DNA of 63,963 bases, the filler included, from Barthelona sp. PAP020 (Eukaryota), in NCBI GenBank assembly GCA_040182905.1. It is 4 parts of 4 records of this genome, joined end to end, with 100 filler letters (N's around TTAATTAATTAA, not from the genome) between each part and the next. Parts side by side here need not be neighbours in the genome. Positions count along the whole stretch, not along the records: positions 36,439 to 54,487 come from JARQWU010000232.1; 3 more parts are not named here. The stretch is one strand, 5' to 3'. Below are positions 1-58,396 of this stretch, one piece after another. Under the pieces are notes generated by a model. It had not been told where the DNA came from, did not search any database, and saw only the letters and a program-made list of their open reading frames with translations. The position numbers and the translations under genes were made by a program. Numbering within the stretch: the first letter of the stretch is position 1; each line of letters starts with the position of its first letter.

Positions 1-1014
1 ATCGAAAAATTGTTGGACCATGGTGCTGATGTCAATATATGTCCTGACAATAAGTTTAATCCATTATGTATTAGTTGCCAGTGTTGCCATTTTGATATCA
101 TTCATCTCTTATTAAGATATGGTGCTGATGTGAACGTATGTGATGCAAAAGGTATTTCTCCATTTTGTTGGTGTATTTCAAAACATTCAATCGATATGGC
201 AGCCTTTTTGTTGAAAAATTATGATATAGATCTCAATTTGGGAAAATCTCCCTTCTTTGTTTGTTGTCGAGAAAACAATCTTGATTTTGTCAAAACACTT
301 CTAGAAATGGGTGCAGATGTCAATTCATGCAACATTAATGGTGCTTCTTCATTGTATATTGCTTGCGAATTGGGGCATTTTGAAATTGTCAAATATCTTT
401 TGATTCATGGTGCTGATGTCAACTTGTGCTTCACAGGTTATTCTCCTTTGTACATCAGTGCCTATCATGGCCATCTTGATATCATCAAAATGTTGTTGGA
501 CCATGGTGCTGATGTTAATAAGCGTGGTTCTAAGAGGCATTCTCCATTTTCTATCAGTGCCTATCATGGCCATTTGGATATTGCTGTGATGCTTTTAAAT
601 CGACCAGAAATTAATGTTAATGGATTCGACATGTATATATTTTTCAACAGATATTATATGCCCTCTGATTTGTGGGATGCGCACAAAGAATCTGCTGAAA
701 AATTATACATTAACGTGGCAAATTTTGGAGAGCCATCAACCGAAGGAGATGTTGATGTGACATTTTATCACGTTTCTCAATCTCAAGTGATTGAATTAGT
801 CAAGAATCAAGGATATCTCATTTCAACACTTGTTTTAGTGAAGGCAAACAGTTCTTTAATACGACAATTTGTTAGTTCCGGCGTATATATGAATCAAATG
901 GACTTTGACTTAGCTATTAATACATGTTGGGATTTGGTCGACATCAATGAAAGGAATGGTGGTAATATGCATCAATACATTGATGAAAATGCTGATGAAA
1001 GTGATGATGATTAA
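1..1014 (+). CDS. Ankyrin-repeat protein with conserved unknown C-terminal module and acidic tail (5'-truncated)
   Basis: About 6 ANK repeats (SPLYISAYHGHLDIIKMLLDHGADVN). The frame is open from position 1. C-terminal IELVKNQGY...CWDLVDINERNGGNM is shared with the ORFs at 52292 and 55535. Confidence 0.9.
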   Translation: MEKLLDHGADVNICPDNKFNPLCISCQCCHFDIIHLLLRYGADVNVCDAKGISPFCWCISKHSIDMAAFLLKNYDIDLNLGKSPFFVCCRENNLDFVKTLLEMGADVNSCNINGASSLYIACELGHFEIVKYLLIHGADVNLCFTGYSPLYISAYHGHLDIIKMLLDHGADVNKRGSKRHSPFSISAYHGHLDIAVMLLNRPEINVNGFDMYIFFNRYYMPSDLWDAHKESAEKLYINVANFGEPSTEGDVDVTFYHVSQSQVIELVKNQGYLISTLVLVKANSSLIRQFVSSGVYMNQMDFDLAINTCWDLVDINERNGGNMHQYIDENADESDDD

Positions 1015-33062: not shown

Positions 33063-35933
33063 TTACAAGAAATGAAGTTTAGAAGCAAGATCATTGTGAA
33101 CTAAATCTCTTGGAGATTGTAAATCAGATTCCATCAAGGTTTCACCAACAAATTTAGAATATTTAAGAGCGTTTTGCATTGGTGCAGGATATTTGAGAGA
33201 TCCAGGTTTTGTGAAATAAAGATGAGTTAACAAAAATGTAAGATGAATAAATTGATCTCTTAAGAAAGCATTATCATTGAAAATAACAATATAATGAACA
33301 GGTTTAGCCATAGAATTTCTTGAAATAGGCTTACAACTGTGTAAATAAAAATCAAAAACTTCACCAGAACTGACATTGCTGCCTAATAAGATATCATCTG
33401 TACTTCTACAAATATCACCCAATGCAAAAGTACCTGTGGGAGGGTTGAAATAGTTACCATCATGTGGCCAAAACATTCTTAAAGGTGTTTGGTTGTGAAC
33501 AACACAATAAGTCAAACTGGTGTTAATACCGCTGTTTAAGAATGATTCTTTCAAAGTGGTACAATCTTGAATAACGATATCTTCGTAAGCTACAGTGGGT
33601 ATTCCACCTCTATAAACAATGACTGAAGCAGGTGATTTACCTTGACCTCTAAAGTAATTCATACAATCGATTGATAATTCAGAAAATTCAGAAGAACAAT
33701 CTGTTTTATCAACTAATCTAAAATCAGACCAAAACTCCAAATTATGTTCTCCTTCACCAACATACATTGCAGAAACAACAAATATTGATCTAGTTGTTGT
33801 TAAAGAATTGTAAATGTCTGATCCAATCACAAGGAAAGGTGTTGAAACACGAGATAAATTATTTCTCAATTCAGTAGCCCAATTGATATCCCAAATGGAA
33901 GCACCCATCTTGACTTGCAATTGTGCAATCAAATTAGAGCATACAACCTTCAAATTACGATGCTTTTCAGCATTAACATATTGCGATACAATATTATTAA
34001 CAGAACAAAAGCGTTTAAGCACTCTATAAGGTTCAGCATCACCATTCTCTGCAATTACCAAAATGCAATCAAAGTTAACGCATTCATTTTCCAAAAATGC
34101 ACCTAAATTAGCAGCATTTATTTCACGAGTGACTGGTCTAGCCATCATATGTCCAACATATAACTTAGCAATAGAATCAAAATTCCTTAAAATTTCCATT
34201 GTTTTTGCTTCGCCTTCGTTTGAGGAACAAATTCGAATTACTATCCAATTGTTCATGGTTCTAGGATTCTTGTAATGGATTCTCTGTAATTCTTTTCCCC
34301 AATCATCAGAACCAGCCACAGCTTTTGCTTCAGCACCAATTTTTAAATAAATCGAAGGTAAAACTTTTGTATCTGGTTGACGAATACGTCTACAATTGCT
34401 AATATGAGGTTCTAATGCAATTCCCCAAGATTGAATAATCTCAATTGGTGAATTATCAAAAGCTTTTCCATTTCGACGAGTAGATATTTCAGTTATCAAT
34501 TTTAAAAATGCTTCCACCTTATTCATAAATTCAATCGGATGTAATTGAGTCATTTTTGTGATTCTATGTCTCATCGATTCAGGAGTATTGGTCAAATAAC
34601 AAACACTAAGGGGATAATAAGTAAATTTAGGATTACCTTCTCTGTCTTTACCCTTCACAAAAAGCAACCCTTCATTAGGATCAATCGTCATGTTATACTT
34701 GATATTGTAATACTCACATATCGAAGTCATCTTTCCATTGTAATCAAACTGCTCATGTCCAGCTGTTTTTTCCATGTCTCGGTCATGAATTAGCACAGTT
34801 TTATTTAAGTGAGGAATTAAAACCTCCAAATTACGGAAGTTACTAATGTCACCATAATTTGCAAGGGCGCCAAGATGATCGCGAGGAATAATTTTAGGTT
34901 GAGGAACAATAAATAAGGAATAACCAGTTTTTAATTTGCAAACTTGAGTCTTGTATTGAGTGTGAATAAAAAATTCGTCCCTTTCTTCCTTTCTACTTGT
35001 GACATATGATTTGCCAATCTTAACCAAATCTGTGCTCTGTAAAGCTTTATTAATGATCAAATTCAAAATTTGCTCATGAATAACTTGATCTTCAACGGAA
35101 TCAACTTCATTAATCATCGATTTAAAAGCAATTTTTGGACGCAAAACTTGTCCCTTAATAAATGGAATTTCACAAGTATAATCATTTAAATAGCTGCAAT
35201 CTTCACCTTTAATGAAAAATGAGTTTCCATCTATGAGAATTAACTTAAAATCGGGCTCTTTTGAATAACTTCCAAAAGCCTCTCTAATTGTTCTTACTAC
35301 AATTCGTTCCATTTTTTTCCTTGAAACACTTTCCAAATTTTGTATGACATAATGTTGAACTTGCAAATTTCCAACATGTAAATCAATGGAATTAATGGCC
35401 AATTCAGAATTCTTTTGAAACATATGTCTTTCTGGTTCTCTTGGAAAAGAAAAACTTCTTCCTCCACGATCTCCTCTAAAGGCACCACGATTTCCTCTAA
35501 ATCCTCCTCTAGTCCCTCGAAAACTACCACGAGGTGCTCTAAATCCACCACGATCACTTCCTCGGAAACCTCCACGACCTCCACGACCTCTATATGGTCT
35601 TCTATCTTGATATTCACGACGTTGATAATTATCCTGCCTGGGATCATCATAATATCCATATGGTGGTGCTCCCGGTGGTCCTTGTGGCATAAATTGAGGA
35701 GGTGGTCCTTGAGGTCCATCATACATAGGAGCATAACCAGATTGTGGATAATTACCTGCACCATAATTGGAAGGTCCTCGAGATGGTGGAGGTCCAGAAT
35801 GATATCCACCAGGAGGACCTGATTGATAACCTTGAGGTTGTCCTTGATAACCAGAATTTGGATCTTGATAATATCTATTAGGAGGTTGAGAACTCATATT
35901 TCTCCCATAATTGTTACCATAAGAATTATTCAT
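33063..35933 (-). CDS. PIWI-clade Argonaute with RG-rich N-terminus; slicer residues degenerate
   Basis: RGG/GRG repeats; PAZ (SICEYYNIKY); MID (YRVLKR, SQYV, QLQVKMG); PIWI (VIGSD, IVYRGG, THLYF...PAP). Likely ATG at 35933. Confidence 0.92.
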   Translation of the reverse strand: MNNSYGNNYGRNMSSQPPNRYYQDPNSGYQGQPQGYQSGPPGGYHSGPPPSRGPSNYGAGNYPQSGYAPMYDGPQGPPPQFMPQGPPGAPPYGYYDDPRQDNYQRREYQDRRPYRGRGGRGGFRGSDRGGFRAPRGSFRGTRGGFRGNRGAFRGDRGGRSFSFPREPERHMFQKNSELAINSIDLHVGNLQVQHYVIQNLESVSRKKMERIVVRTIREAFGSYSKEPDFKLILIDGNSFFIKGEDCSYLNDYTCEIPFIKGQVLRPKIAFKSMINEVDSVEDQVIHEQILNLIINKALQSTDLVKIGKSYVTSRKEERDEFFIHTQYKTQVCKLKTGYSLFIVPQPKIIPRDHLGALANYGDISNFRNLEVLIPHLNKTVLIHDRDMEKTAGHEQFDYNGKMTSICEYYNIKYNMTIDPNEGLLFVKGKDREGNPKFTYYPLSVCYLTNTPESMRHRITKMTQLHPIEFMNKVEAFLKLITEISTRRNGKAFDNSPIEIIQSWGIALEPHISNCRRIRQPDTKVLPSIYLKIGAEAKAVAGSDDWGKELQRIHYKNPRTMNNWIVIRICSSNEGEAKTMEILRNFDSIAKLYVGHMMARPVTREINAANLGAFLENECVNFDCILVIAENGDAEPYRVLKRFCSVNNIVSQYVNAEKHRNLKVVCSNLIAQLQVKMGASIWDINWATELRNNLSRVSTPFLVIGSDIYNSLTTTRSIFVVSAMYVGEGEHNLEFWSDFRLVDKTDCSSEFSELSIDCMNYFRGQGKSPASVIVYRGGIPTVAYEDIVIQDCTTLKESFLNSGINTSLTYCVVHNQTPLRMFWPHDGNYFNPPTGTFALGDICRSTDDILLGSNVSSGEVFDFYLHSCKPISRNSMAKPVHYIVIFNDNAFLRDQFIHLTFLLTHLYFTKPGSLKYPAPMQNALKYSKFVGETLMESDLQSPRDLVHNDLASKLHFL

Positions 35934-36338
35934 ACGGAAAAAATTGAGAAAAAATAAACTTACACTTTTTCTTCTGCCTTTTTTTTTCATTGCCAATTTA
36001 CCACCTTATTATTCCAACAATTAAAAATAAAATAAAAATATAAAGACTAAAGGAAAACAAATAAAAAAAACCCTGTTAAATTCTTGTAAATTTCCTTTTT
36101 TTTTTGTTTTTTTTTTTTGCATCTTACAATCAATTCATTTTACGAACGACCAAAAATTATATTACATTATCGCATAAAGAAAAGAATCTAAAAATATTTA
36201 TTTTGAGAAGAAATTTGTATTTTTTTTTTTTTGAAAAATGTCTGACCAAGAGGAAAACATTAAGAAATTTCAAATTAAAAGATTAATTCAATCTTTAAGA
36301 GGATACAGAGGGTATAATTTTTTTAATATTCATGATAT

Positions 36339-36438
36339 NNNNNNNNNNNNNNNNNNNNNNNNNNNNNNNNNNNNNNNNNNNNTTAATTAATTAANNNNNN
36401 NNNNNNNNNNNNNNNNNNNNNNNNNNNNNNNNNNNNNN
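36339..36438. other. Artificial contig spacer
   Basis: N44-TTAATTAATTAA-N44. Confidence 0.98.
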
Positions 36439-36439
36439 C

Positions 36440-38440
36440 GAAATTAATCGAAAGGCAGTGGATGTTTGGGCGTTTGCTGTGATGATGATTTATGTAATGA
36501 CAGGTATTCGTCCTTTTGAGGGCATTGATGATCGTAGAATGTTTAGAAATTTGGAAAATGGGAAATTGCCATATTCTGACGAGATGATTGATTCGGTTCC
36601 TGGTCATGGCATTGTAAAGTTGTGTTTGGATAAAGATCCTGCTAATCGTCCATCATTCGAGTTGATTACTGATTATCTAAAGATGCTTGTTGACACAATA
36701 CATAGTGTCATTGGCCCTTATGTTAAACATGATATGGATCAAGTTGTTGTTCCAAATGGGTTCTATGTGTATAGGGGTTTATCCGAGATTTATCAGGCCA
36801 CAATGTATGGTAACCTGAAAGTTGTCAAGCATTGTATCAAATCTGGTTTTTATGTGAACAAACAGGGTAAGGCAGGAAGGACATCGTTGTATGAGGCTGC
36901 TTTTTATGGGCGTATTAAGGTTGTTGAGTTTTTGTTGGATTTTAGGGCTGATGTTAGTTTGTGTACGAATGATGGGTGGTCTCCATTGTACATCAGTTGT
37001 CAAATGGGTCATCTTGATGTTGCCAAAATGCTCTTGGATTATGGCGCTGATGTTAATATATGCAAGAATGATGGGAGGTCTCCATTGTATGGCAGTTGTG
37101 AACATGCACATCTTGATGTCGCCGAAATGCTCTTGGATCATGGCGCTGATATTAATTTGTGTATGAATGATGGGTGGTCTCCATTGGTAATTAGTTGTCA
37201 CAATGGTGATTTTGATATTGCCAAAATGCTCTTGAATCATGGCGCTGATGTTAATTTGTGTGATAATTATGGCACTTCTTCATTGGTAATTAGTTGTCAC
37301 AATGGTGATTTTGATATTGCCAAAATGCTCTTGAATCATGGCGCTGATGTTAATTTGTGTGATAATGATGGCAGTTTTCCATTGACCATCAGTTGTGAAA
37401 ATGGTCATCTTGATGTTGCTAAAATGCTCTTGGATCATGAAGCTGATATTAATTTGTGTGATAATTATGGGTGGTCTCCATTGACCATCAGTTGTGAAAA
37501 TGGTCATCTTGATGTTGCTAAAATGCTCTTGGATCATGGCGCTGACGTTAATTTGTGTAATAATGATGGTAGTTTTCCATTGACCATCAGTTGTCAAAAT
37601 AGTCATCTTGATGTTGCTAAAATGCTCTTGGATCATGGGGCTGATATTAATTTGTGTGATAATTATGGCACTTCTTCATTGTTCATCAGTTGTCAAAATG
37701 GTTATCTTGATGTTGCCAAAATGCTCTTGGATCATGGCGCTGATATTAATTTGTGTAATAATAATGGTGTTTCTCCATTGTTCATCAGTTGTCAAGAAGG
37801 TCATCTTGATGTTGCCAAAATGCTCTTGGATCATGGCGCTGATGTCAAATTATGTATGAACAATGGTGAGTGGTCTCCATTGACCATCAGTTGTGAAAAT
37901 GGTCATCTTGATGTTGCTAAAATGCTCTTGGATCATGGCGCTGACGTTAATTTATGTAATAATGATGGGTGGTCTCCATTCACCATCAGTTGTGAAAATG
38001 GTCATCTTGAGGTTGCTAAAATGCTCTTGGATCATGGAGCTGATGTTAATTTGTGTGATAATAATGGTAGTTTTCCATTGTTCATCAGTTGTCAAGAAGG
38101 TCATCTTGATGTTGCCAAAATGCTCTTGGATCATAAAGCCAATGTCAAATTATGTATGAACAATGGTGAGTCGCCATTATTTGTTAGTTGCGAATTTGGT
38201 CATGTTAATATCGCTAAAATGCTCTTGGATCTTGGGGAGGACATTGATTTGTGTAGAGATGATGGCACTTCTCCATTGTTCATTAGTTGTCAAAATGGTC
38301 ATCTCAACATCGTCAAAATGCTCTTGGATCATGGCGTTGATGTTAACCTCAAAACTGATCAAGGATTGACCCCAATAGATATTGCTCGAACCAATGGTCA
38401 TACCCAAATTGTAGAGCTTCTGCAATCCTTCTACAATTGA
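36440..38440 (+). CDS. Protein kinase C-lobe (5'-truncated) fused to ~17 ankyrin repeats
   Basis: DVWAFAVMM...PFEG...CLDKDPANRPSF followed by 33-aa ANK units; frame open to the contig edge. Confidence 0.92.
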   Translation, partial: EINRKAVDVWAFAVMMIYVMTGIRPFEGIDDRRMFRNLENGKLPYSDEMIDSVPGHGIVKLCLDKDPANRPSFELITDYLKMLVDTIHSVIGPYVKHDMDQVVVPNGFYVYRGLSEIYQATMYGNLKVVKHCIKSGFYVNKQGKAGRTSLYEAAFYGRIKVVEFLLDFRADVSLCTNDGWSPLYISCQMGHLDVAKMLLDYGADVNICKNDGRSPLYGSCEHAHLDVAEMLLDHGADINLCMNDGWSPLVISCHNGDFDIAKMLLNHGADVNLCDNYGTSSLVISCHNGDFDIAKMLLNHGADVNLCDNDGSFPLTISCENGHLDVAKMLLDHEADINLCDNYGWSPLTISCENGHLDVAKMLLDHGADVNLCNNDGSFPLTISCQNSHLDVAKMLLDHGADINLCDNYGTSSLFISCQNGYLDVAKMLLDHGADINLCNNNGVSPLFISCQEGHLDVAKMLLDHGADVKLCMNNGEWSPLTISCENGHLDVAKMLLDHGADVNLCNNDGWSPFTISCENGHLEVAKMLLDHGADVNLCDNNGSFPLFISCQEGHLDVAKMLLDHKANVKLCMNNGESPLFVSCEFGHVNIAKMLLDLGEDIDLCRDDGTSPLFISCQNGHLNIVKMLLDHGVDVNLKTDQGLTPIDIARTNGHTQIVELLQSFYN

Positions 38441-45819: not shown

Positions 45820-46100
45820 CAAAAGTATATTATTTGCATAAATGCATGAATATCAACAAACAATTCCAACGAAAAAAAAATAAATCAAAATTCCCAACTT
45901 CCAACATATTTTATGAAAGCAATCAAATAAAATTTATCATTCATTTATTTATTTAAAATCTAAATTTAAAGAATTAAAGGAGATTATCTCAAAATTATCA
46001 AGTATCTTTCTCAAAACACATAAGTCTTCTTAATTGACACAAATATTCAGACAAACAATAAAAAATAAAAGAAAAACCACATATTTACAAAGATAAACCA

Positions 46101-46847
46101 TCAAATATCACCATCATCATCAGAAGTGCAATCTTCAATGTTGTTAGGTAATAACCCAAGAGAATAATGACCAGCTGAAAATTTATTGTAAAAAAAAGAA
46201 AAAATACTCCCAAAATCACGTACAATTTCATGTTCCATCACAATACCTCCACCATATTGAACACATTCATGGAGTAACGAACATTCGATCGAATAAGTAA
46301 TTTCTTGACAAATGGATTTCCCCGCAGTATCATTTTGAAAACATAGAGGAGGCATGTATACTCTGATTGCTTGATGAGCAAAATTGAAATCAACTGGTAA
46401 AATTTGTTGCAATAAATTCTCTCGAAGGAAAATAGAAACACCATATGAAATATTTGACCTTGTTTGTTGCTTTGTTGTACCATCAGAAAAATGTCCATAA
46501 TAAACATGTGATATACAATTGATCGGAAATCTTTTAAAATGTGAAATTTGAAAATTTTTGAAATCAAACTTCACATGATACAAATGTGTGTTTGTAATTA
46601 ATAATAATCTTTCCTGTTCGCAATTATTGTGATTAATGTAAGTTAACACGTAACCTTTAACAAATAATTCATCATCAGGAATCATGCTCTTTCTACAAAA
46701 ATGAATGACATGATATTGAACTTTTGTAGGAGTAAAAGCAGACGATGGACTGTTAATGATAGCTTTAATTTTATGAAAATCACCTGTTCTAACTGCTTCT
46801 CTGATTGCAGTTTGTTCTTGCGTTGTAAATCCTAATCTATTTGACAT
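46101..46847 (-). CDS. hSac2-domain (TPRG1-like) protein
   Basis: GYVLTYINHNNCEQERLLLITNTHLYHVKFDF resembles the hSac2/TPRG1 motif. ATG at 46847; the upstream poly-Ile is an (ATT)n tract. Confidence 0.7.
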   Translation of the reverse strand: MSNRLGFTTQEQTAIREAVRTGDFHKIKAIINSPSSAFTPTKVQYHVIHFCRKSMIPDDELFVKGYVLTYINHNNCEQERLLLITNTHLYHVKFDFKNFQISHFKRFPINCISHVYYGHFSDGTTKQQTRSNISYGVSIFLRENLLQQILPVDFNFAHQAIRVYMPPLCFQNDTAGKSICQEITYSIECSLLHECVQYGGGIVMEHEIVRDFGSIFSFFYNKFSAGHYSLGLLPNNIEDCTSDDDGDI

Positions 46848-46854
46848 TAATATT

Positions 46855-46888
<34 letters not shown>

Positions 46889-47097
46889 ACAAATTAACTA
46901 GTATAATTATATGTTATATGTATTTCATTCGAAAAATAAACAATGGAAAAATATCAAATTGACAAATCACCAAAAAAAAATTCACAAAAAAATTTACAAC
47001 AAGAAATCAACAATTTTTTTTAAAAAAATAGAAAATAAAAAATATCAAGAAGGAATGATACAATTAAAACAAAAACAAATCAATCATTGTCCTTTAA

Positions 47098-49086
47098 TCA
47101 TGTTGAAATGATTTCAGCCAAAGTTTTCAAGTTTGTCACTAATTTTTGGGAAGCTAATTGATGTGCAAATAATTTCAATAAATTAACAAATATCTTCCCA
47201 AAACCTTTTAAAACTTTGAATTTTTTCTTGTCGTTTTCATAAATTCTCAAATGTCGAATCAAACATTCAACAGCAAAGGAAATATTCATATTTTCATTGA
47301 CAATAAAAGGAAAGAAATCAAGTTTGTCTTTATTAAACATTAACAACTTAACTACAGCATTGACAAATGAACTTTCCAACATTTCTTTTTGTTCTTCAGA
47401 AATTTGCTCAAAAACATGCTCTCGAATGAGGTCAAACATTTCAAAACGTTTGGATACATCATCAAACAGTAAAAGAAACGATTCTTGCAATTCTAAAACA
47501 ATTGAATGTTCATACACATCAAATTCACAATTAATTTCCACGATAAACAAATCGAATAAATTCATTGTAAAGCTGCCGGGAAACACACTTAGAATTTTCA
47601 ACTTCTCTAATAACGCCAAATCAATCTGATCAATAACCCGTTTGAAAACAACATTCAGCAAGTGTAAACCTTTGGCCAGAGAATCTTCGAAGACAGCAAG
47701 AATTTCATCTCCTTTCAGATTCTTTCGATGTTCAATGATTTGACCCATAATCTTAATTGCCTGTGGATATCCACCAGTTAAATTTGATAAATGAAGTGCT
47801 GAACTTTGTGAAATGCGAGTACAATGAGACAATGCCAATAATGCACCTGCATGCTTCGACAAAGGTTTGAGCCCAACAGATAAGAAATCAGCGTTATTTA
47901 CTGCAACTCCAACAGGACTGCGACTTGTGACAATGACTATTGCTCTACCATGTGTTGGTATTAACTGTTCAAGGATGTACGGATCTGAGCAGTTCTCAAC
48001 CAACATTAGTCTATGTGTCTCAAATAGGCGGTCATATAATTCGTCTATTGATTTCCCGGATGAGTTAAATAAAAGATCTTTTTCTTCACTTGTCTTTCCG
48101 TCTATTTTCAGTGCTAATATTCTACAAATTACTTTTTTTGCAGAAACGACATCTATATGGCCTGTCATTGCTTGCATGTCAACATAAACACTAATATAGT
48201 TCTCAGAAAGAGTTTCAACCAGTTTTGCAGCAAGACAACTCTTGCCAACACCTGCACTTCCCCAAATAACCACTACTTGTGAGCTGTTATAAGAGTTGAA
48301 CAAGAACTGCTCAATTTCTGCTAATTCACTATTTCGTCCATAAAAGCTATTCATAATCAAATCCTGATATCGATCTGTTGACCGAAAAACACGTTCATCT
48401 ATCAAATTTTGGTTCATCTTTTTAATTCCCCCATCTCTTCTAATGTAAGCAGATGAGTTATTGTTAAAATACAATGGTTGATTTCCTTTTTTTACAACAA
48501 CAGATAACATGTAATAATTGGGTATTATACCCTCATTTGCATCATATAAAGGAATGAACTTAACAGTATACAATTCTATATCAACTTTGGGTCGAAATAA
48601 ACCAATAATAGTGTTGATATTGACAGTCAATCTTTTAACATCATCTGTGGAGAAATTCATTCCAATGATTTCCCCATCGTCTTCCACTCCAATCCACAAC
48701 TTTCCTCCATCTGTGTTTAAAAATGCACACACATATTGAGCAACATATTTGTTCAAACAATTAATAAAATTTTCATCTTGAACAATCACCTTGAACTCAT
48801 TATGCTTTTCTTCTTCAATAATTATCCGATTATGTTTTATATACATTCCTAAAGTATCCATCGATATGTCTAAACTATCGTCAGAGATTATCTCAATGTC
48901 ATTTTCATCAATAATTTCCTCGTTTAGCTCATCAACATTAAGAATAGATGCATTTGAGCTTGAAAAACTACGGACCCCCAATAAAACATCTAAACGAGTA
49001 TTCGAAGATGTTATAAAACTTTCTTCATCTTGAAAATTTGTATTTAACATCGTTTCATTCAATAAATATTGTTTTTCAAAATACAT
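47098..49086 (-). CDS. Schlafen/AlbA_2 nuclease domain + STAND (NB-ARC-like) NTPase + winged helix
   Basis: EEKHNEFK, YVCAFLNTDGGKLWIGVEDDG and YIRRDG; FYGRNSE, GSAGVGKS, LMLVEN, IVTSR, GGYPQAI, LSVFPGSF, MFDLIR. Confidence 0.9.
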   Translation of the reverse strand: MYFEKQYLLNETMLNTNFQDEESFITSSNTRLDVLLGVRSFSSSNASILNVDELNEEIIDENDIEIISDDSLDISMDTLGMYIKHNRIIIEEEKHNEFKVIVQDENFINCLNKYVAQYVCAFLNTDGGKLWIGVEDDGEIIGMNFSTDDVKRLTVNINTIIGLFRPKVDIELYTVKFIPLYDANEGIIPNYYMLSVVVKKGNQPLYFNNNSSAYIRRDGGIKKMNQNLIDERVFRSTDRYQDLIMNSFYGRNSELAEIEQFLFNSYNSSQVVVIWGSAGVGKSCLAAKLVETLSENYISVYVDMQAMTGHIDVVSAKKVICRILALKIDGKTSEEKDLLFNSSGKSIDELYDRLFETHRLMLVENCSDPYILEQLIPTHGRAIVIVTSRSPVGVAVNNADFLSVGLKPLSKHAGALLALSHCTRISQSSALHLSNLTGGYPQAIKIMGQIIEHRKNLKGDEILAVFEDSLAKGLHLLNVVFKRVIDQIDLALLEKLKILSVFPGSFTMNLFDLFIVEINCEFDVYEHSIVLELQESFLLLFDDVSKRFEMFDLIREHVFEQISEEQKEMLESSFVNAVVKLLMFNKDKLDFFPFIVNENMNISFAVECLIRHLRIYENDKKKFKVLKGFGKIFVNLLKLFAHQLASQKLVTNLKTLAEIIST

Positions 49087-49231
49087 TCAAAATGATTTTT
49101 TTTATTGAATAATTCATTTCTTTTCAAATATAAAGCACAAATCGAAAGAAAAAAACAACAATCTTCAAAAGAAAAGAATGAATGGCTTACATGAATTTTT
49201 TTTTTATATCAAATAGAATCATATCTTTATA

Positions 49232-50392
49232 ATGCCGACACAGGATGTTTATGATTTTTTTGAAAAGAAGAGTTTACTGGGACTTGGAACGTATGGTATG
49301 GTATTTTTAGGTTATGAAAAGAAAACTGGCAGAGAAGTTGCATTAAAAGTTTACAAACATGATAGGGAAACTAATGTTAGACAATTACGTGAGATAGATT
49401 TCTGTCGTAGAATGAAACATGAGAATATTGCTGATTATTTAGGTGTTTTCACATCATATGAACCTAAAAATACTTATGATGATCAAGTAAAGAATCCTTA
49501 TATACCAGATAGAGCTAATACACCTTGTATTCATAATCAAACAAACAATTCAACTCGTAGATTTGTTTGGAGCGTTTATTTGTATGAAAACCATACTTTA
49601 TCAACACTTTTGAGACGATTACCTTCTCAATCTAGATACAACATAGCATTTAGAATTCAATTTGCTAAGCATGTTATACAAGGCCTATTGAGAGCCTTAG
49701 ATTATTTGCACAAACATGGTGTCATCCATCGTGATATTAAAACGGCTAACATTTTGATTAACCGTGATTCTAGTGTTAAATTAACAGATTTTGGTCTTGC
49801 TAGACAGTTTGTTGATGATACTGGAAGAATCAGATACAACGTTCATATGACTAATAGAGTAATTACATCAAATTATCGTCCTCCTGAGTTATTTTATGGT
49901 GCCATTACTTATGGACCCGAGGTTGATATTTGGTCTGCTGGTATAGTCCTAGCGGAATTGTTAGCGCCAGGATTTTTAGAAAATACGAATAATACCGAAG
50001 AATTCTCGTGGGGTGGATGGTTCCATAAATTGGTCGGTTTTCCTGATGTTTCCAAGCAAGAAAATGCTGCTTTAGAGGAGTTACCGTTTTTCCATATTTT
50101 TGTACCGAAAAATCCGAATCCTTCCAATATTGATAATCAAGAAATGTTAAAGAAGAGGATTCGTCAATGTTCTGGTGAAATAAGTGAAGAAAATATGGCA
50201 TTATGTTTGCAAATGTTAAAAGTTCATCCTGGTGAAAGGCCCTCTGCTGAAGAATGTTTGACTCATCCTTGGTTTTCAAGTGATCCCAAGCCTGGGCCAG
50301 TTGATCTCAGTGAAATCGGTGACTCTCATCCAAAGCCCAAAAGTAATCCCAATGATTTAAAAAGACAACCCTTAGATTCATCGAGATTTTAG
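49232..50392 (+). CDS. Cyclin-dependent kinase, CDK9/CDK12-like (divergent)
   Basis: [43 protein letters not shown]...YGPEVDIWS. Confidence 0.88.
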
Positions 50393-50659
50393 AATTGATT
50401 ATGAAATTCAAAAAAAAAAAAAATGTGAAATTGCAGGCAAAACAAAAATATTTCAATTTGAACTTTTATCCAACATATAAATTGTTTAACTCTCTTTTTT
50501 TTTTGTCAACTTTAAGAAATATATTAAAAATTAGTCAAACCAAATTAACAATAATTTAGAACTCCAGTTAAAATCTTTTGCAAGAAATTCAAAAAGAAAT
50601 CAGACGAGTTTTACGAGGAAAACATTAGTGGAGACATTTAATGTGAATCAAGGGGCTAA

Positions 50660-50899: not shown

Positions 50900-50972
50900 T
50901 GATCTTGCCGGGTTTCGATCCCGGGACCACCTGCGTGTTAGGCAGGCACTCTCCCAACTGAGCTACAAGATC
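50900..50972 (-). tRNA. trnV: tRNA-Val(AAC)
   Basis: Cloverleaf GATCTTG...CCTGC-CTAACAC-GCAGG...CCGGG-ATCGAAA-CCCGG-CAAGATC-A, followed by TTTT. Confidence 0.95.
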
Positions 50973-52291: not shown

Positions 52292-54487
52292 CTAATCATC
52301 ATTGTCATCACTGTTATCACTATCATCATCTTCTATCTCTTCATCAATATGCTGACGCATATTGCCACCATTCCTTTCATTGATGTCAATCAAATCCCAA
52401 CATAAGTTGATTGACATATCAAAATCTCTTTGATTCATGTAAACTCCAGCACTGACAAATTCTCGGATGATGACACTGTCTACCTTCATTGCAACAAGTG
52501 TTGATAAAAGATAGCCCTCATTCTTTACCAATTCAATCAACTCGGATTTGGACAAATGTTCAAATTTCAAATCAACAGGCTCGCCACTCTTCAATTTTTG
52601 TTTTAAATTGGGACAGCTCAAAATGCTGTATTTGTTCTTTTTCCATTGTTCATCACTTGTATACAATCTGTTGAAAAATAGCAGCATATCTTCACCATAT
52701 AGGTTTATTTCGGGACAATCTAGAAGCATCTTGGCAATATCAAGATAACCATAATAACAACTGACATACAATGGAGAATATCCCCCGTGCCTACACAAAT
52801 TAACATCAGCTCCATAATCCAAGAGCATTCTGGCAACATCAAGGTGACCATTTTGACAACTGACGTACAATGGAGAACTACCATCATTAGGAAACAAATT
52901 AACATCAGCGCCATGATCCAAGAGCATTTTGGCAACATCAAGATGACCATTTTGACAACTAATGTACAATGGAGAAGTGCCATTGTTTTTACACAAATTA
53001 AAATCAGCGTCATGATCCAAAAGCATTTTGGCAACATCAAGATGACCATTTTGACAACTAATGTACAATGGAGAAGTGCCATTGTTTTTACACAAATTAA
53101 AATCAGCGTCATGATCCAAGAGCATTTTGGCAACATCAAGATGACCATTTTGACAACTGACGTACAATGGAGAACTACCATCATTTGGAAACAAATTAAC
53201 ATCAGCGTCATGATCCAAGAGCATTTTGGCAACATCAAGATGACCTTGTTCACAACTGATGTACAATGAAGAAGCACCATTATTCTTACACAAATTAACA
53301 TCAGCGCCATGATCCAAAACCATTCTGGCAATATCAAGATGGCCATTTTGACAACTAATGTACAATGGAGAAGCACCGTCATTCATACACAAATTAACAT
53401 CAGCGCCATGATCCAAAACCATTCTAGCAACATCAAGATGACCATTTTGACAACTGATGTACAATGAACAAGCACCATTATTCTTACACAAATTAACATC
53501 AGCGCCATGATCCAAAACCATTCTGGCAACATTAAGATGGCCATTTTGACAACTAATGTACAATGAAGAAGCACCATTATTATTGCACAAATTAATATCA
53601 GCTCCATGATCTAAGAGCATTCTGGCAACATCAAAATGACCTTCTTTACAACTGACATACAATGGAGAAAATCCACCATCCCTACACAAATTAACATCAG
53701 CCCCATGATCCAAGAGCATTTCGGCAACATCAAGATGACCATTTTGACAACTGATGCACAATGGAGAAAATCCACCATCCCTACACAAATTTACATCTGC
53801 TCCATGATCCAAGAGCATTTTGGCGACATCAAAATGACCTTGTTGACAACTGATGTACAATGGAGAAGCACCATCATTCTTACACGAATTAACATCAGCG
53901 CCATGATTCAAAAGCATTCTGGCAACATCAAGATGGCCTTTTTGACAACTGATGTACAATGGAGAAAAACCATCATTATCACACAAATTAACATCAGCTC
54001 TATGATCCAAGAGCATTTTGGCGACATCAAGATGATCTTGATGACAACTGATGTACAATGGAGAAACACCATCGTTTACACACAAATTAACATCAGCTCC
54101 ATGATCCAAGAGCATTCTGGCAACATCAAGATGACCATTATAACAACTGATGTATAATGGAGAAGCATTATCATACATACTCAAATGAACATCAGCGCCA
54201 AAATCCAACAAAAACTCAACAACTTCTAATTGCCCATAAAAAGCAGCTCCAAACAATGTTGTTCTTCCTTCCTTACCCTGTTTGTTCACATCAACGCCAG
54301 CTTTGATACACTGCTTGATAAGCTCAAGATTACCATAAAAAGCTGCATAATATATCTTCTTTGGACGACCATTATCTTCAAATCCATCCACATCGAACCC
54401 ATCTGGAACAACAACTTGATCCATATTATACTTAACATAAGGATCAGTTTCCTCAACTGCAGTGTTAACAATCATTGTCGGCAAAAA
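52292..54487 (-). CDS. ~17 ankyrin repeats + conserved unknown C-terminal module (probably 5'-truncated; kinase may lie upstream)
   Basis: Near-identical 99-bp ANK units. PYVKYNMDQVVVPDGF linker is shared with the kinase-ANK gene; tail is shared with the ORFs at 1 and 55535. Confidence 0.92.
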   Translation of the reverse strand, partial: FLPTMIVNTAVEETDPYVKYNMDQVVVPDGFDVDGFEDNGRPKKIYYAAFYGNLELIKQCIKAGVDVNKQGKEGRTTLFGAAFYGQLEVVEFLLDFGADVHLSMYDNASPLYISCYNGHLDVARMLLDHGADVNLCVNDGVSPLYISCHQDHLDVAKMLLDHRADVNLCDNDGFSPLYISCQKGHLDVARMLLNHGADVNSCKNDGASPLYISCQQGHFDVAKMLLDHGADVNLCRDGGFSPLCISCQNGHLDVAEMLLDHGADVNLCRDGGFSPLYVSCKEGHFDVARMLLDHGADINLCNNNGASSLYISCQNGHLNVARMVLDHGADVNLCKNNGACSLYISCQNGHLDVARMVLDHGADVNLCMNDGASPLYISCQNGHLDIARMVLDHGADVNLCKNNGASSLYISCEQGHLDVAKMLLDHDADVNLFPNDGSSPLYVSCQNGHLDVAKMLLDHDADFNLCKNNGTSPLYISCQNGHLDVAKMLLDHDADFNLCKNNGTSPLYISCQNGHLDVAKMLLDHGADVNLFPNDGSSPLYVSCQNGHLDVARMLLDYGADVNLCRHGGYSPLYVSCYYGYLDIAKMLLDCPEINLYGEDMLLFFNRLYTSDEQWKKNKYSILSCPNLKQKLKSGEPVDLKFEHLSKSELIELVKNEGYLLSTLVAMKVDSVIIREFVSAGVYMNQRDFDMSINLCWDLIDINERNGGNMRQHIDEEIEDDDSDNSDDNDD

Positions 54488-54587
54488 NNNNNNNNNNNNN
54501 NNNNNNNNNNNNNNNNNNNNNNNNNNNNNNNTTAATTAATTAANNNNNNNNNNNNNNNNNNNNNNNNNNNNNNNNNNNNNNNNNNNN
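54488..54587. other. Artificial contig spacer
   Basis: N44-TTAATTAATTAA-N44. Confidence 0.98.
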
Positions 54588-58325: not shown

Positions 58326-58396
58326 TGCGGTATCCGGGAATCGAACCCGGTTCCCCAGCTTGGAAGGCTAGTATTCTACCAGTAGACCAATACCGC
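58326..58396 (-). tRNA. trnG: tRNA-Gly(TCC)
   Basis: GCGGTAT...CTAGC-CTTCCAA-GCTGG-GGAA-CCGGG-TTCGATT-CCCGG-ATACCGC-A, followed by a T-tract. Confidence 0.95.

What the first reader, a model, noticed from the sequence alone, without database searches (positions are those of the whole stretch)
47098..49086. Schlafen nuclease fused to a STAND/NB-ARC NTPase: NLR-like protein with an RNase effector
Seen: AlbA_2/Schlafen core (~48390-48816) keeps ExxxxEFK and GVxDDG acidic residues. It is followed by a full STAND module: GR, Walker A GSAGVGKS, Walker B variant LMLVEN, VTSR, GxP and MHD-like MFD. Only ~100 helical residues follow, with no long sensor array. Established: Schlafen cores cleave tRNA/rRNA in antiviral defence; animal Schlafens carry an SF1 helicase instead; STAND-effector fusions are typical of NLR and bacterial Avs systems. 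Inference: an oligomerisation-activated translation shut-off effector in a protist, possibly using a separate sensor such as the ANK/WD40 family.
Basis: partly seen in the sequence, partly recalled or inferred. Interest (0 to 1): 0.78.

Follow-up and report, generated by a model that had tools for sequence, protein, structure and literature searches.

The report
Sensorless Schlafen-NB-ARC protein of protists
This protist gene joins a Schlafen-type domain with an intact RNA-cutting motif to an immune-receptor-type (NB-ARC) ATP switch that has no repeat sensor; relatives with the same layout occur in metamonads, amoebae and a single-celled relative of animals, and it likely shuts down translation by cutting tRNA when the switch clusters.

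Summary
An intronless 662-aa ORF in a barthelonid-type metamonad carries a full Schlafen/AlbA_2 domain with the Ex4ExK motif, then an AfsR-like NB-ARC STAND module, then only 100 residues. It is not a one-off. Of the 150 best hits in 1.84 billion proteins, 43 have both domains in this order. Named ones come from Metamonada, Amoebozoa and Ichthyosporea. Most lack a repeat sensor, and these short forms share a Walker B Asp-to-Glu change (39 of 40) and loss of the autoinhibitory MHD histidine (35 of 36 lack it). All 4 TPR-bearing relatives keep the histidine. The predicted structure best matches CED-4, also sensorless, and the SAMD9 tRNase domain. Best reading: a CED-4-like, ATP-primed scaffold that clusters an RNase to shut off translation in defence or stress, restrained by a partner. 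Nuclease activity, oligomerisation and immune role are all inferred. Nothing links it to the ANK/WD40 genes.

The parts
47098..49086 (-). Whole gene, 662 aa, single open frame
48853..49086 (-). Residues 1-78: acidic extension, predicted disordered
   Evidence: pLDDT under 50 for 1-78; 18 D/E against 4 K/R in residues 1-85
48412..48813 (-). Schlafen/AlbA_2 domain, residues 92-225 (fold spans about 79-236), one copy
   Evidence: Pfam E 1.5e-17; SAMD9 domain 7ksp Z 16.0, rmsd 3.6, 166 aligned
48790..48813 (-). E92-x4-E97-x-K99 catalytic motif
   Evidence: aligns to the SLFN12/SLFN14 motif; motif defined in PMC13056530
48673..48690 (-). GVEDDG; D136 is the likely further catalytic acid
   Evidence: D in 30 of 34 short-form rows; catalytic role inferred by analogy
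47677..48354 (-). NB-ARC nucleotide-binding domain and helical domain 1, residues about 245-470
   Evidence: Pfam NB-ARC; family profile best matches AfsR 8k60, E 2.7e-39
48238..48261 (-). Walker A GSAGVGKS, intact K282
   Evidence: K in 41 of 41 short-form rows
47992..48009 (-). Walker B variant LMLVEN (E364 where AfsR-like proteins have D)
   Evidence: E in 39 of 40 short-form rows, D in 8 of 8 AfsR-like rows
47920..47931 (-). VTSR with sensor-1 R389
   Evidence: R in 32 of 39 short-form rows
47401..47676 (-). Winged-helix domain, residues about 471-562, with MFD (47431-47439) at the MHD position; His replaced by F551
   Evidence: aligned to RFHDLIR of an AfsR-like protein; model
47101..47400 (-). 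100-residue helical tail (HD2-like), no TPR/LRR/WD40 array
   Evidence: model 238-608 superposes on CED-4 116-543

Best explanation
The gene encodes a Schlafen domain fused to a sensorless NB-ARC STAND module, and it likely works as a switchable RNase that cuts tRNA or rRNA to shut down translation during infection or severe stress. Shown: domain order, intact catalytic and Walker A motifs, no repeat sensor, and a conserved family with the same layout. Inferred steps: (1) the module binds ATP and hydrolyses it poorly (Walker B E-N); (2) without the MHD histidine it lacks the usual ADP latch and is primed for the open state, as CED-4 is; (3) it is therefore held off by something else, most likely a partner protein or contacts of the short tail; (4) release lets the STAND modules oligomerise and bring the single-copy Schlafen domains together into an active nuclease. 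The family likely descends from a Schlafen-NB-ARC-TPR ancestor built on a bacterial AfsR-type module, and lost the TPR sensor early.
For: Catalytic set E-x4-E-x-K plus D intact in the query and in 28 of 32 short-form rows that cover it; the Schlafen domain is the best conserved part (mean identity 0.40, against 0.30 and 0.23). 43 of the 150 best hits have both domains in this order; distances in the two domains correlate (Mantel rho 0.41, 0 of 2000 permutations reach it, 31 rows), as expected if they were inherited together. MHD His: 1 of 36 short forms, 4 of 4 TPR-bearing Schlafen forms, 8 of 8 AfsR-like proteins. The model (pLDDT 81.6) is closest to CED-4 (Z 23.2, rmsd 3.8, 328 aligned) and fits resistosome/apoptosome entries (rmsd about 5-7) better than ADP-bound Apaf-1 or resting NRC2 (16-19). 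Literature: CED-4 stays ATP-bound without hydrolysis (PMC7583971); loss of the equivalent His activates SAMD9 (PMC13600222); MHD mutants are usually autoactive (PMC6713354); characterised Schlafen fusions kill or arrest cells through this site (PMC12680541, PMC13056530).
Against: No activity, partner or trigger was shown. The His/TPR pattern may be one ancestral event, not many. The closest relative (P0008, Barthelona sp. PCE) keeps a His at this position, and 2 of 4 TPR-bearing forms already have Walker B E. N at the second Walker B place is ordinary in AfsR-like proteins (7 of 8), so only the D-to-E change is special. A predicted open conformation can be a modelling bias, and SAMD9 is ATP-bound yet closed. 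The nearest solved STAND is AfsR, a transcription regulator, so the module does not itself imply immunity. Neighbours are ordinary cell genes (kinase, hSac2-domain protein, kinesin, Spb1, PEPCK), and there is no second copy in the window. Wide retention without a variable sensor also fits a housekeeping job.
Confidence: 0.52

Rival explanations
1. A housekeeping or developmental RNA-processing nuclease. The STAND part has become a fixed ATP-bound scaffold, and the Schlafen domain trims or turns over a specific cellular RNA (small-RNA maturation, ribosome or tRNA turnover in starvation or encystment).
For: Kept in three distant supergroups with one layout and no sensor. One named hit each from Barthelona sp. 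PCE, TZLM1-RC and GEM-RC1 among the 10 looked up. Single Schlafen domains process piRNA precursors in the PUCH complex (PMC10567574). 30.4% of prokaryotic Schlafens lie outside defence islands (PMC13056530). The window also encodes a PAZ-PIWI protein, though 11 kb away.
Against: Long branches, nuclease-dead members (P0032, P0039) and TPR-bearing relatives look more like conflict systems. Copy number per genome was not measured. Every characterised Schlafen-STAND fusion I read about is defensive or toxic.
Confidence: 0.25
2. A self-contained sensor: the 100-residue tail (or the Schlafen-NBD surface) binds the trigger directly, as the short C-terminal domains of some bacterial NACHT proteins are proposed to, so no separate inhibitor or sensor is needed.
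For: Short tails act as candidate sensors in bNACHT01 (bioRxiv 2022.07.19.500537). The tail scores lowest against the family profile and is often not detected in relatives. A bacterial Schlafen-NB-ARC of 580 aa also has almost nothing after the module.
Against: The tail keeps a conserved Asn motif and aligns with the HD2 region of CED-4, a structural part. Loss of the MHD latch leaves unexplained what would keep it off.
Confidence: 0.15
3. A decaying or non-enzymatic remnant: the sensor was lost, the switch degenerated and this copy no longer acts as a regulated nuclease.
For: Walker B and MHD are non-canonical; the query is a long branch; 4 of 32 rows have lost part of the catalytic set.
Against: Open frame with host-like codon use; all catalytic residues, Walker A and sensor-1 intact; the same changes are conserved across distant lineages.
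Confidence: 0.06

Closest known systems
SAMD9/SAMD9L (animals) and Avs9 (bacteria)
   Same: N-terminal single AlbA_2 nuclease ahead of a STAND module; the Schlafen domain model matches the SAMD9 tRNase domain best (Z 16.0).
   Different: They have SIR2 between the two, and TPR and OB after; about 1,400-1,600 aa; non-canonical Walker A and retained WHD His in SAMD9. The query has none of these extra domains. The SAMD9/Avs9 structural search reported no hits in protozoa (PMC12680541).
Bacterial Schlafen-NB-ARC proteins (WP_178385451 in group pSlfn15 of PMC13056530; two ESM Atlas clusters of about 840 aa)
   Same: Same domain order and, for WP_178385451, similar size.
   Different: Only a 48-residue match at 33% identity; canonical Walker B DD; its Schlafen domain falls outside the family in the tree. 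Likely a separate fusion. Not tested experimentally in the section read.
bNACHT34 (Schlafen-NACHT)
   Same: Schlafen effector N-terminal to a STAND module (bioRxiv 2022.07.19.500537).
   Different: NACHT class; the query scores below the NACHT cut-off and its profile retrieves AP-ATPases.
CED-4 (C. elegans)
   Same: Effector + NB-ARC + short helical end with no repeat sensor; best structural match (Z 23.2); ATP-bound, non-hydrolysing.
   Different: CARD recruits a caspase and CED-9 restrains it (CARD and the absence of WD40 recalled; CED-9 complex from PDB titles). Only 13% identity; a works-like match, not kinship.
AfsR/SARP-type AP-ATPases of Actinomycetes
   Same: Closest STAND module by sequence (E 2.7e-39 to 8k60; 28% over 363 columns to P0001).
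   Different: DNA-binding head and long TPR tail; canonical Walker B D and MHD His; grouping the query with 9 such rows is rejected (p-AU 0.006).
Mammalian SLFN5/11/12/14
   Same: Homologous nuclease lobe and Ex4ExK motif.
   Different: Two-lobed N-terminal domain and a helicase in the long members; no STAND module.

Membership tests
Schlafen/AlbA_2 nuclease domain | PF04326 above curated cut-off, whole model | tested here: met
   64.7 bits against 25.3
Schlafen/AlbA_2 nuclease domain | Ex4(E/D)xK catalytic motif | tested here: met
   E92, E97, K99
Schlafen/AlbA_2 nuclease domain | RNase activity on tRNA/rRNA | not testable with these tools
   needs an assay
STAND, NB-ARC/AP-ATPase class | NBD + helical domain + winged helix, with GR, Walker A, sensor-1 R and GxP | tested here: met
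STAND, NB-ARC/AP-ATPase class | Canonical Walker B hhhhD(D/E) | tested here: not met
   LMLVEN; E is family-wide, 39 of 40; definition from PMC6713354. A variant within the class
STAND, NB-ARC/AP-ATPase class | MHD histidine | tested here: not met
   F551; His in 1 of 36 short-form rows
STAND, NB-ARC/AP-ATPase class | Nucleotide-dependent oligomerisation | not testable with these tools
Tripartite NLR / Avs receptor | N-terminal effector and central STAND | tested here: met
Tripartite NLR / Avs receptor | C-terminal repeat sensor (TPR, LRR, WD40, ANK) | tested here: not met
   100 residues after the winged helix, no repeat family, no downstream frame
SAMD9 / Avs9 | SIR2-like domain between AlbA_2 and the NTPase | tested here: not met
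   about 10-20 residues separate the two domains; architecture from PMC5445408 and PMC12680541
SAMD9 / Avs9 | TPR array and C-terminal OB fold | tested here: not met
bNACHT34-type Schlafen-NACHT | NACHT module | tested here: not met
   19.9 bits against 26.7, P-loop only; profile retrieves AfsR, NRC4, Roq1, Apaf-1
Mammalian SLFN family | Two-lobed core and, in long members, SF1 helicase | tested here: not met
   one AlbA_2 domain followed by NB-ARC
Protist short Schlafen-NB-ARC family (defined here) | Collinear homology over both domains and grouping with the other short forms | tested here: met
   E 1e-57 to P0008 over residues 53-580; short forms on one side of a branch, SH-aLRT 86; moderate support only

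The most novel reading that the evidence does not exclude
This is an ancient eukaryotic abortive-immunity module, present before metamonads, amoebozoans and opisthokonts split: a CED-4-like, latch-free STAND ring that arms a tRNase and is guarded by a separate inhibitor. It would be a third independent Schlafen-STAND invention beside SAMD9 and Avs9, and a protist translation-shutoff immune receptor.
Probability: 0.3. Interest if true: 0.85.

Novelty: new variant of a known kind. Interest (0 to 1): 0.62.

Why it matters
Cell-autonomous immunity in protists is poorly mapped, and a recent cross-kingdom search for SAMD9-like proteins reported none in protozoa (PMC12680541). A compact 660-aa Schlafen-STAND kept in metamonads, amoebozoans and an ichthyosporean gives a small, expressible model for how a STAND controls a Schlafen nuclease. 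TPR-bearing and sensorless relatives differ at the MHD latch, which makes the link between sensor loss and switch rewiring directly testable. If it proves to be housekeeping, it would be a STAND recruited away from conflict, which is also informative.

Tried and rejected
No whole genome is held, so paralogues and copy number could not be counted. No sequencing run was listed for 46000-50500; this says nothing on expression. The exact protein and six shorter start variants are not in the protein collection, nor are 6 of 9 neighbours tested, so this is uninformative. Word-seeded homologue searches missed the family: 1, 1 and 22 hits, none a two-domain member. Single-sequence folding failed (pLDDT 34). 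Complex prediction for two copies was not available; nothing was folded. PADLOC and NCBIfam gave only sub-threshold P-loop matches. Viral contigs gave no relative; phage records gave 4 weak Schlafen-only matches; prokaryote genomes gave 2 Schlafen-only loci. The origin of the TPR-bearing forms P0027/P0043 stayed unknown: two metagenome scans and 101 genomes of one phylum found nothing, so a bacterial donor is not shown. The careful tree did not finish; quick and FastTree trees were used. Rejected: frameshift or lost exon hiding a sensor; bacterial contamination (eukaryotic neighbours, host-like codon use, protist top hits); recent transfer from AfsR-like bacteria; ANK/WD40 genes as partners (no evidence either way). 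Burroughs and Aravind 2020 (PMC7685563) was not held.

Full report
Observation. The window is an AT-rich, gene-dense, intron-poor eukaryotic contig. The gene next to the finding (46101-46847) shares a 90% cluster with a named EukProt protein of Barthelona sp. PAP020, so the host is a barthelonid-type metamonad (Metamonada). The finding is one open frame of 662 codons with host-like composition. Pfam places SLFN_AlbA_2 at 92-225 and NB-ARC at 254-455, both above their cut-offs. After the winged helix come 100 residues, a stop and 250 bp of 15.6% GC DNA closed in all frames, so the lack of a sensor is real. A kinase gene starts head-to-head 145 bp upstream.

STAND class. The NTPase half aligns from the GR motif through the MHD position with AfsR/SARP-type and TPR-bearing AP-ATPases. 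A profile of 15 family sequences ranks AfsR first among solved structures (E 2.7e-39), then NRC4, Roq1 and Apaf-1. It is an NB-ARC/AP-ATPase, not a NACHT and not the Schlafen helicase.

A family. phmmer over 1.84 billion representatives gave 1272 hits at E up to 0.001, and listed the best 150. By profiles built from the query and 12 of these hits, 43 of the 150 have a Schlafen domain followed by this NB-ARC (circular for those 12). I could look up 10 of the 43; 8 carry names: Barthelona sp. PCE, Eukaryota sp. TZLM1-RC and GEM-RC1, Cavostelium, Arcella, Pelomyxa, Mastigamoeba and Creolimax. NCBI places Cavostelium and Pelomyxa in Amoebozoa and Creolimax in Ichthyosporea; GEM-RC is a skoliomonad (PMC11316075); the placement of Arcella, Mastigamoeba and TZLM1-RC is recalled. 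The other 33 are unnamed. All 43 were scanned with Pfam: 4 have TPR arrays (P0024, P0027, P0034, P0045), 1 has distant LRRs (P0031), 1 has a GCN2-like front (P0014), and several are fragments whose ends cannot be judged.

Shared changes in the switch. I labelled 41 rows as short forms after seeing sequences, Pfam and the first tree; they include the query and fragments, four of them without a Schlafen match. In these, Walker A Lys is kept in 41 of 41, the first Walker B acid is Glu in 39 of 40, sensor-1 Arg is kept in 32 of 39, and the MHD His is present in 1 of 36 (Asn in 19). The His is present in 4 of 4 TPR-bearing Schlafen forms and 8 of 8 AfsR-like proteins. The Schlafen catalytic set is intact in 28 of 32; P0032 and P0039 have lost it, and P0019 and P0038 have Asn for Asp136. 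Against over-reading: related rows are not independent, the closest relative P0008 is the one that keeps His, and 2 of 4 TPR forms have Walker B Glu.

Trees. In a quick NB-ARC tree of 69 rows, 40 rows including the query fall on one side (SH-aLRT 94); two long-branch rows without a Schlafen match (P0050, P0102) are among them. The TPR-bearing Schlafen forms branch between these and the bacterial AfsR-like rows. With 28 long-branch or redundant rows dropped, 22 short forms remain one side of a branch at 86. Forcing the query with 9 AfsR-like rows is rejected (p-AU 0.006; the group was chosen after seeing the tree). In the Schlafen tree (139 rows, FastTree) the short and TPR forms lie in one 54-row group (89) with 14 other rows; the query, P0008, P0012 and P0015 lie in a 16-row group at 97; known bacterial rows are far outside. 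The two domains' distances correlate. This fits one old fusion followed by TPR loss, but support is moderate, the trees are unrooted, and no donor is identified. Vertical descent and transfer between protists are both open.

Structure. With a 37-sequence alignment the model reaches pLDDT 81.6 with residues 1-78 disordered. VIA-align ranks CED-4 first (Z 23.2; model 238-608 on CED-4 116-543), tied within about 1 unit with other CED-4 entries and close to NRC4 and RPP1; the Schlafen part matches SAMD9 tRNase domains (Z 16.0, 15.8) and SLFN5 (14.4). Foldseek rmsd is about 5-7 to resistosome and apoptosome entries and 16-19 to ADP-bound Apaf-1 and resting NRC2. An open predicted state is suggestive only.

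Mechanism. See Best explanation. Shown: anatomy, motifs, family. Inferred: RNase activity (from the conserved motif and characterised homologues), ATP-primed state (from the lost His, by analogy with SAMD9 H985A and CED-4), oligomerisation, a restraining partner, and the defensive role. A housekeeping RNA-processing role is the main rival.

What is known. Schlafen + STAND is described for SAMD9/Avs9 (PMC12680541: abstract, passages, section 7; PMC5445408: passages; PMC13600222: passages), bNACHT34 (bioRxiv 2022.07.19.500537: passages; supplements closed), and one SLFN_AlbA_2.NB-ARC row in supplementary file 21 of PMC13056530 (passages, section 6, term searches of that file and of files 1-10 and 12; the other files not searched). 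ESM Atlas lists two mainly bacterial clusters with both domains. Also read as passages: PMC6713354, PMC7583971, PMC10567574, PMC12492265, PMC11316075 (no mention of Schlafen or NB-ARC in its main text). Eight searches (top listings only) showed no paper on a protist Schlafen-NB-ARC family. The library lacks most subscription papers, PMC7685563 was not held, and unseen supplements or deposited trees (the EukProt AlbA_2 tree of PMC12680541) may include these proteins. Two earlier AI notes of this scan report members in other metamonads; they are leads, not support.

Verdict. Real; a new variant of a known kind: an apparently undescribed, sensorless Schlafen-NB-ARC family spanning three eukaryotic supergroups, function untested. 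Interest 0.62.

Noticed in passing
P0024, P0034, P0045 (one search hits): Long Schlafen-NB-ARC-TPR proteins (1448-1574 aa); P0024 and P0034 end in a hydrophobic stretch followed by basic residues, like a membrane tail anchor. Unnamed; possibly the full-sensor ancestral form.
   Followed up: partly
P0014: 2478-aa protein with RWD, kinase and HisRS-like domains (GCN2 layout) followed by a complete Schlafen-NB-ARC. A tRNA-stress kinase joined to a candidate tRNase would be striking, but a merged gene model is as likely.
   Followed up: no
P0031: Schlafen-NB-ARC with LRR_6 repeats several hundred residues downstream; may be a merged gene model.
   Followed up: no
P0022: 2337-aa protein with 19 AlbA_2 stretches.
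   Followed up: no
P0020, P0032, P0039: Closely grouped family members, one with an intact and two with a lost Schlafen catalytic motif; possible active/dead pairs.
   Followed up: partly
one search hits: Related Schlafen domains fused to cold-shock, UBA, N6/N4 DNA methylase, PemK and NACHT domains.
   Followed up: no
BFVD A0A481YSG6 and A0A1V0SAW2: Top viral fold matches are a Marseillevirus 'ankyrin repeat protein' (349 columns, rmsd 5.8) and a Catovirus 'Divergent AAA domain' protein; giant viruses may carry STAND-like and Schlafen-like domains.
   Followed up: no
window 33063-35996 (-): PAZ-PIWI (Argonaute-family) gene, 977 aa.
   Followed up: no
window 10-1014, 36458-38440, 52292-54484: Ankyrin-repeat ORFs; the latter two abut assembly gaps (N runs at 36339-36438 and 54488-54587), have the most deviant codon use of 20 ORFs, and 36458 begins with a kinase C-terminal piece: an expanded kinase-ANK family, incompletely assembled.
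   Followed up: partly
window 50900-50972 (-) and 58326-58396 (-): tRNA-Val(AAC) and tRNA-Gly(TCC) genes.
   Followed up: yes
window 49087-49231: Only 145 bp separate the gene's start from a divergent protein kinase gene; probably a shared promoter region.
   Followed up: no
L005 3279-8001: The Rhizobium Schlafen-NB-ARC gene lies beside a Vsr endonuclease, a cytosine methyltransferase and a RES-domain gene, a defence-like context.
   Followed up: no
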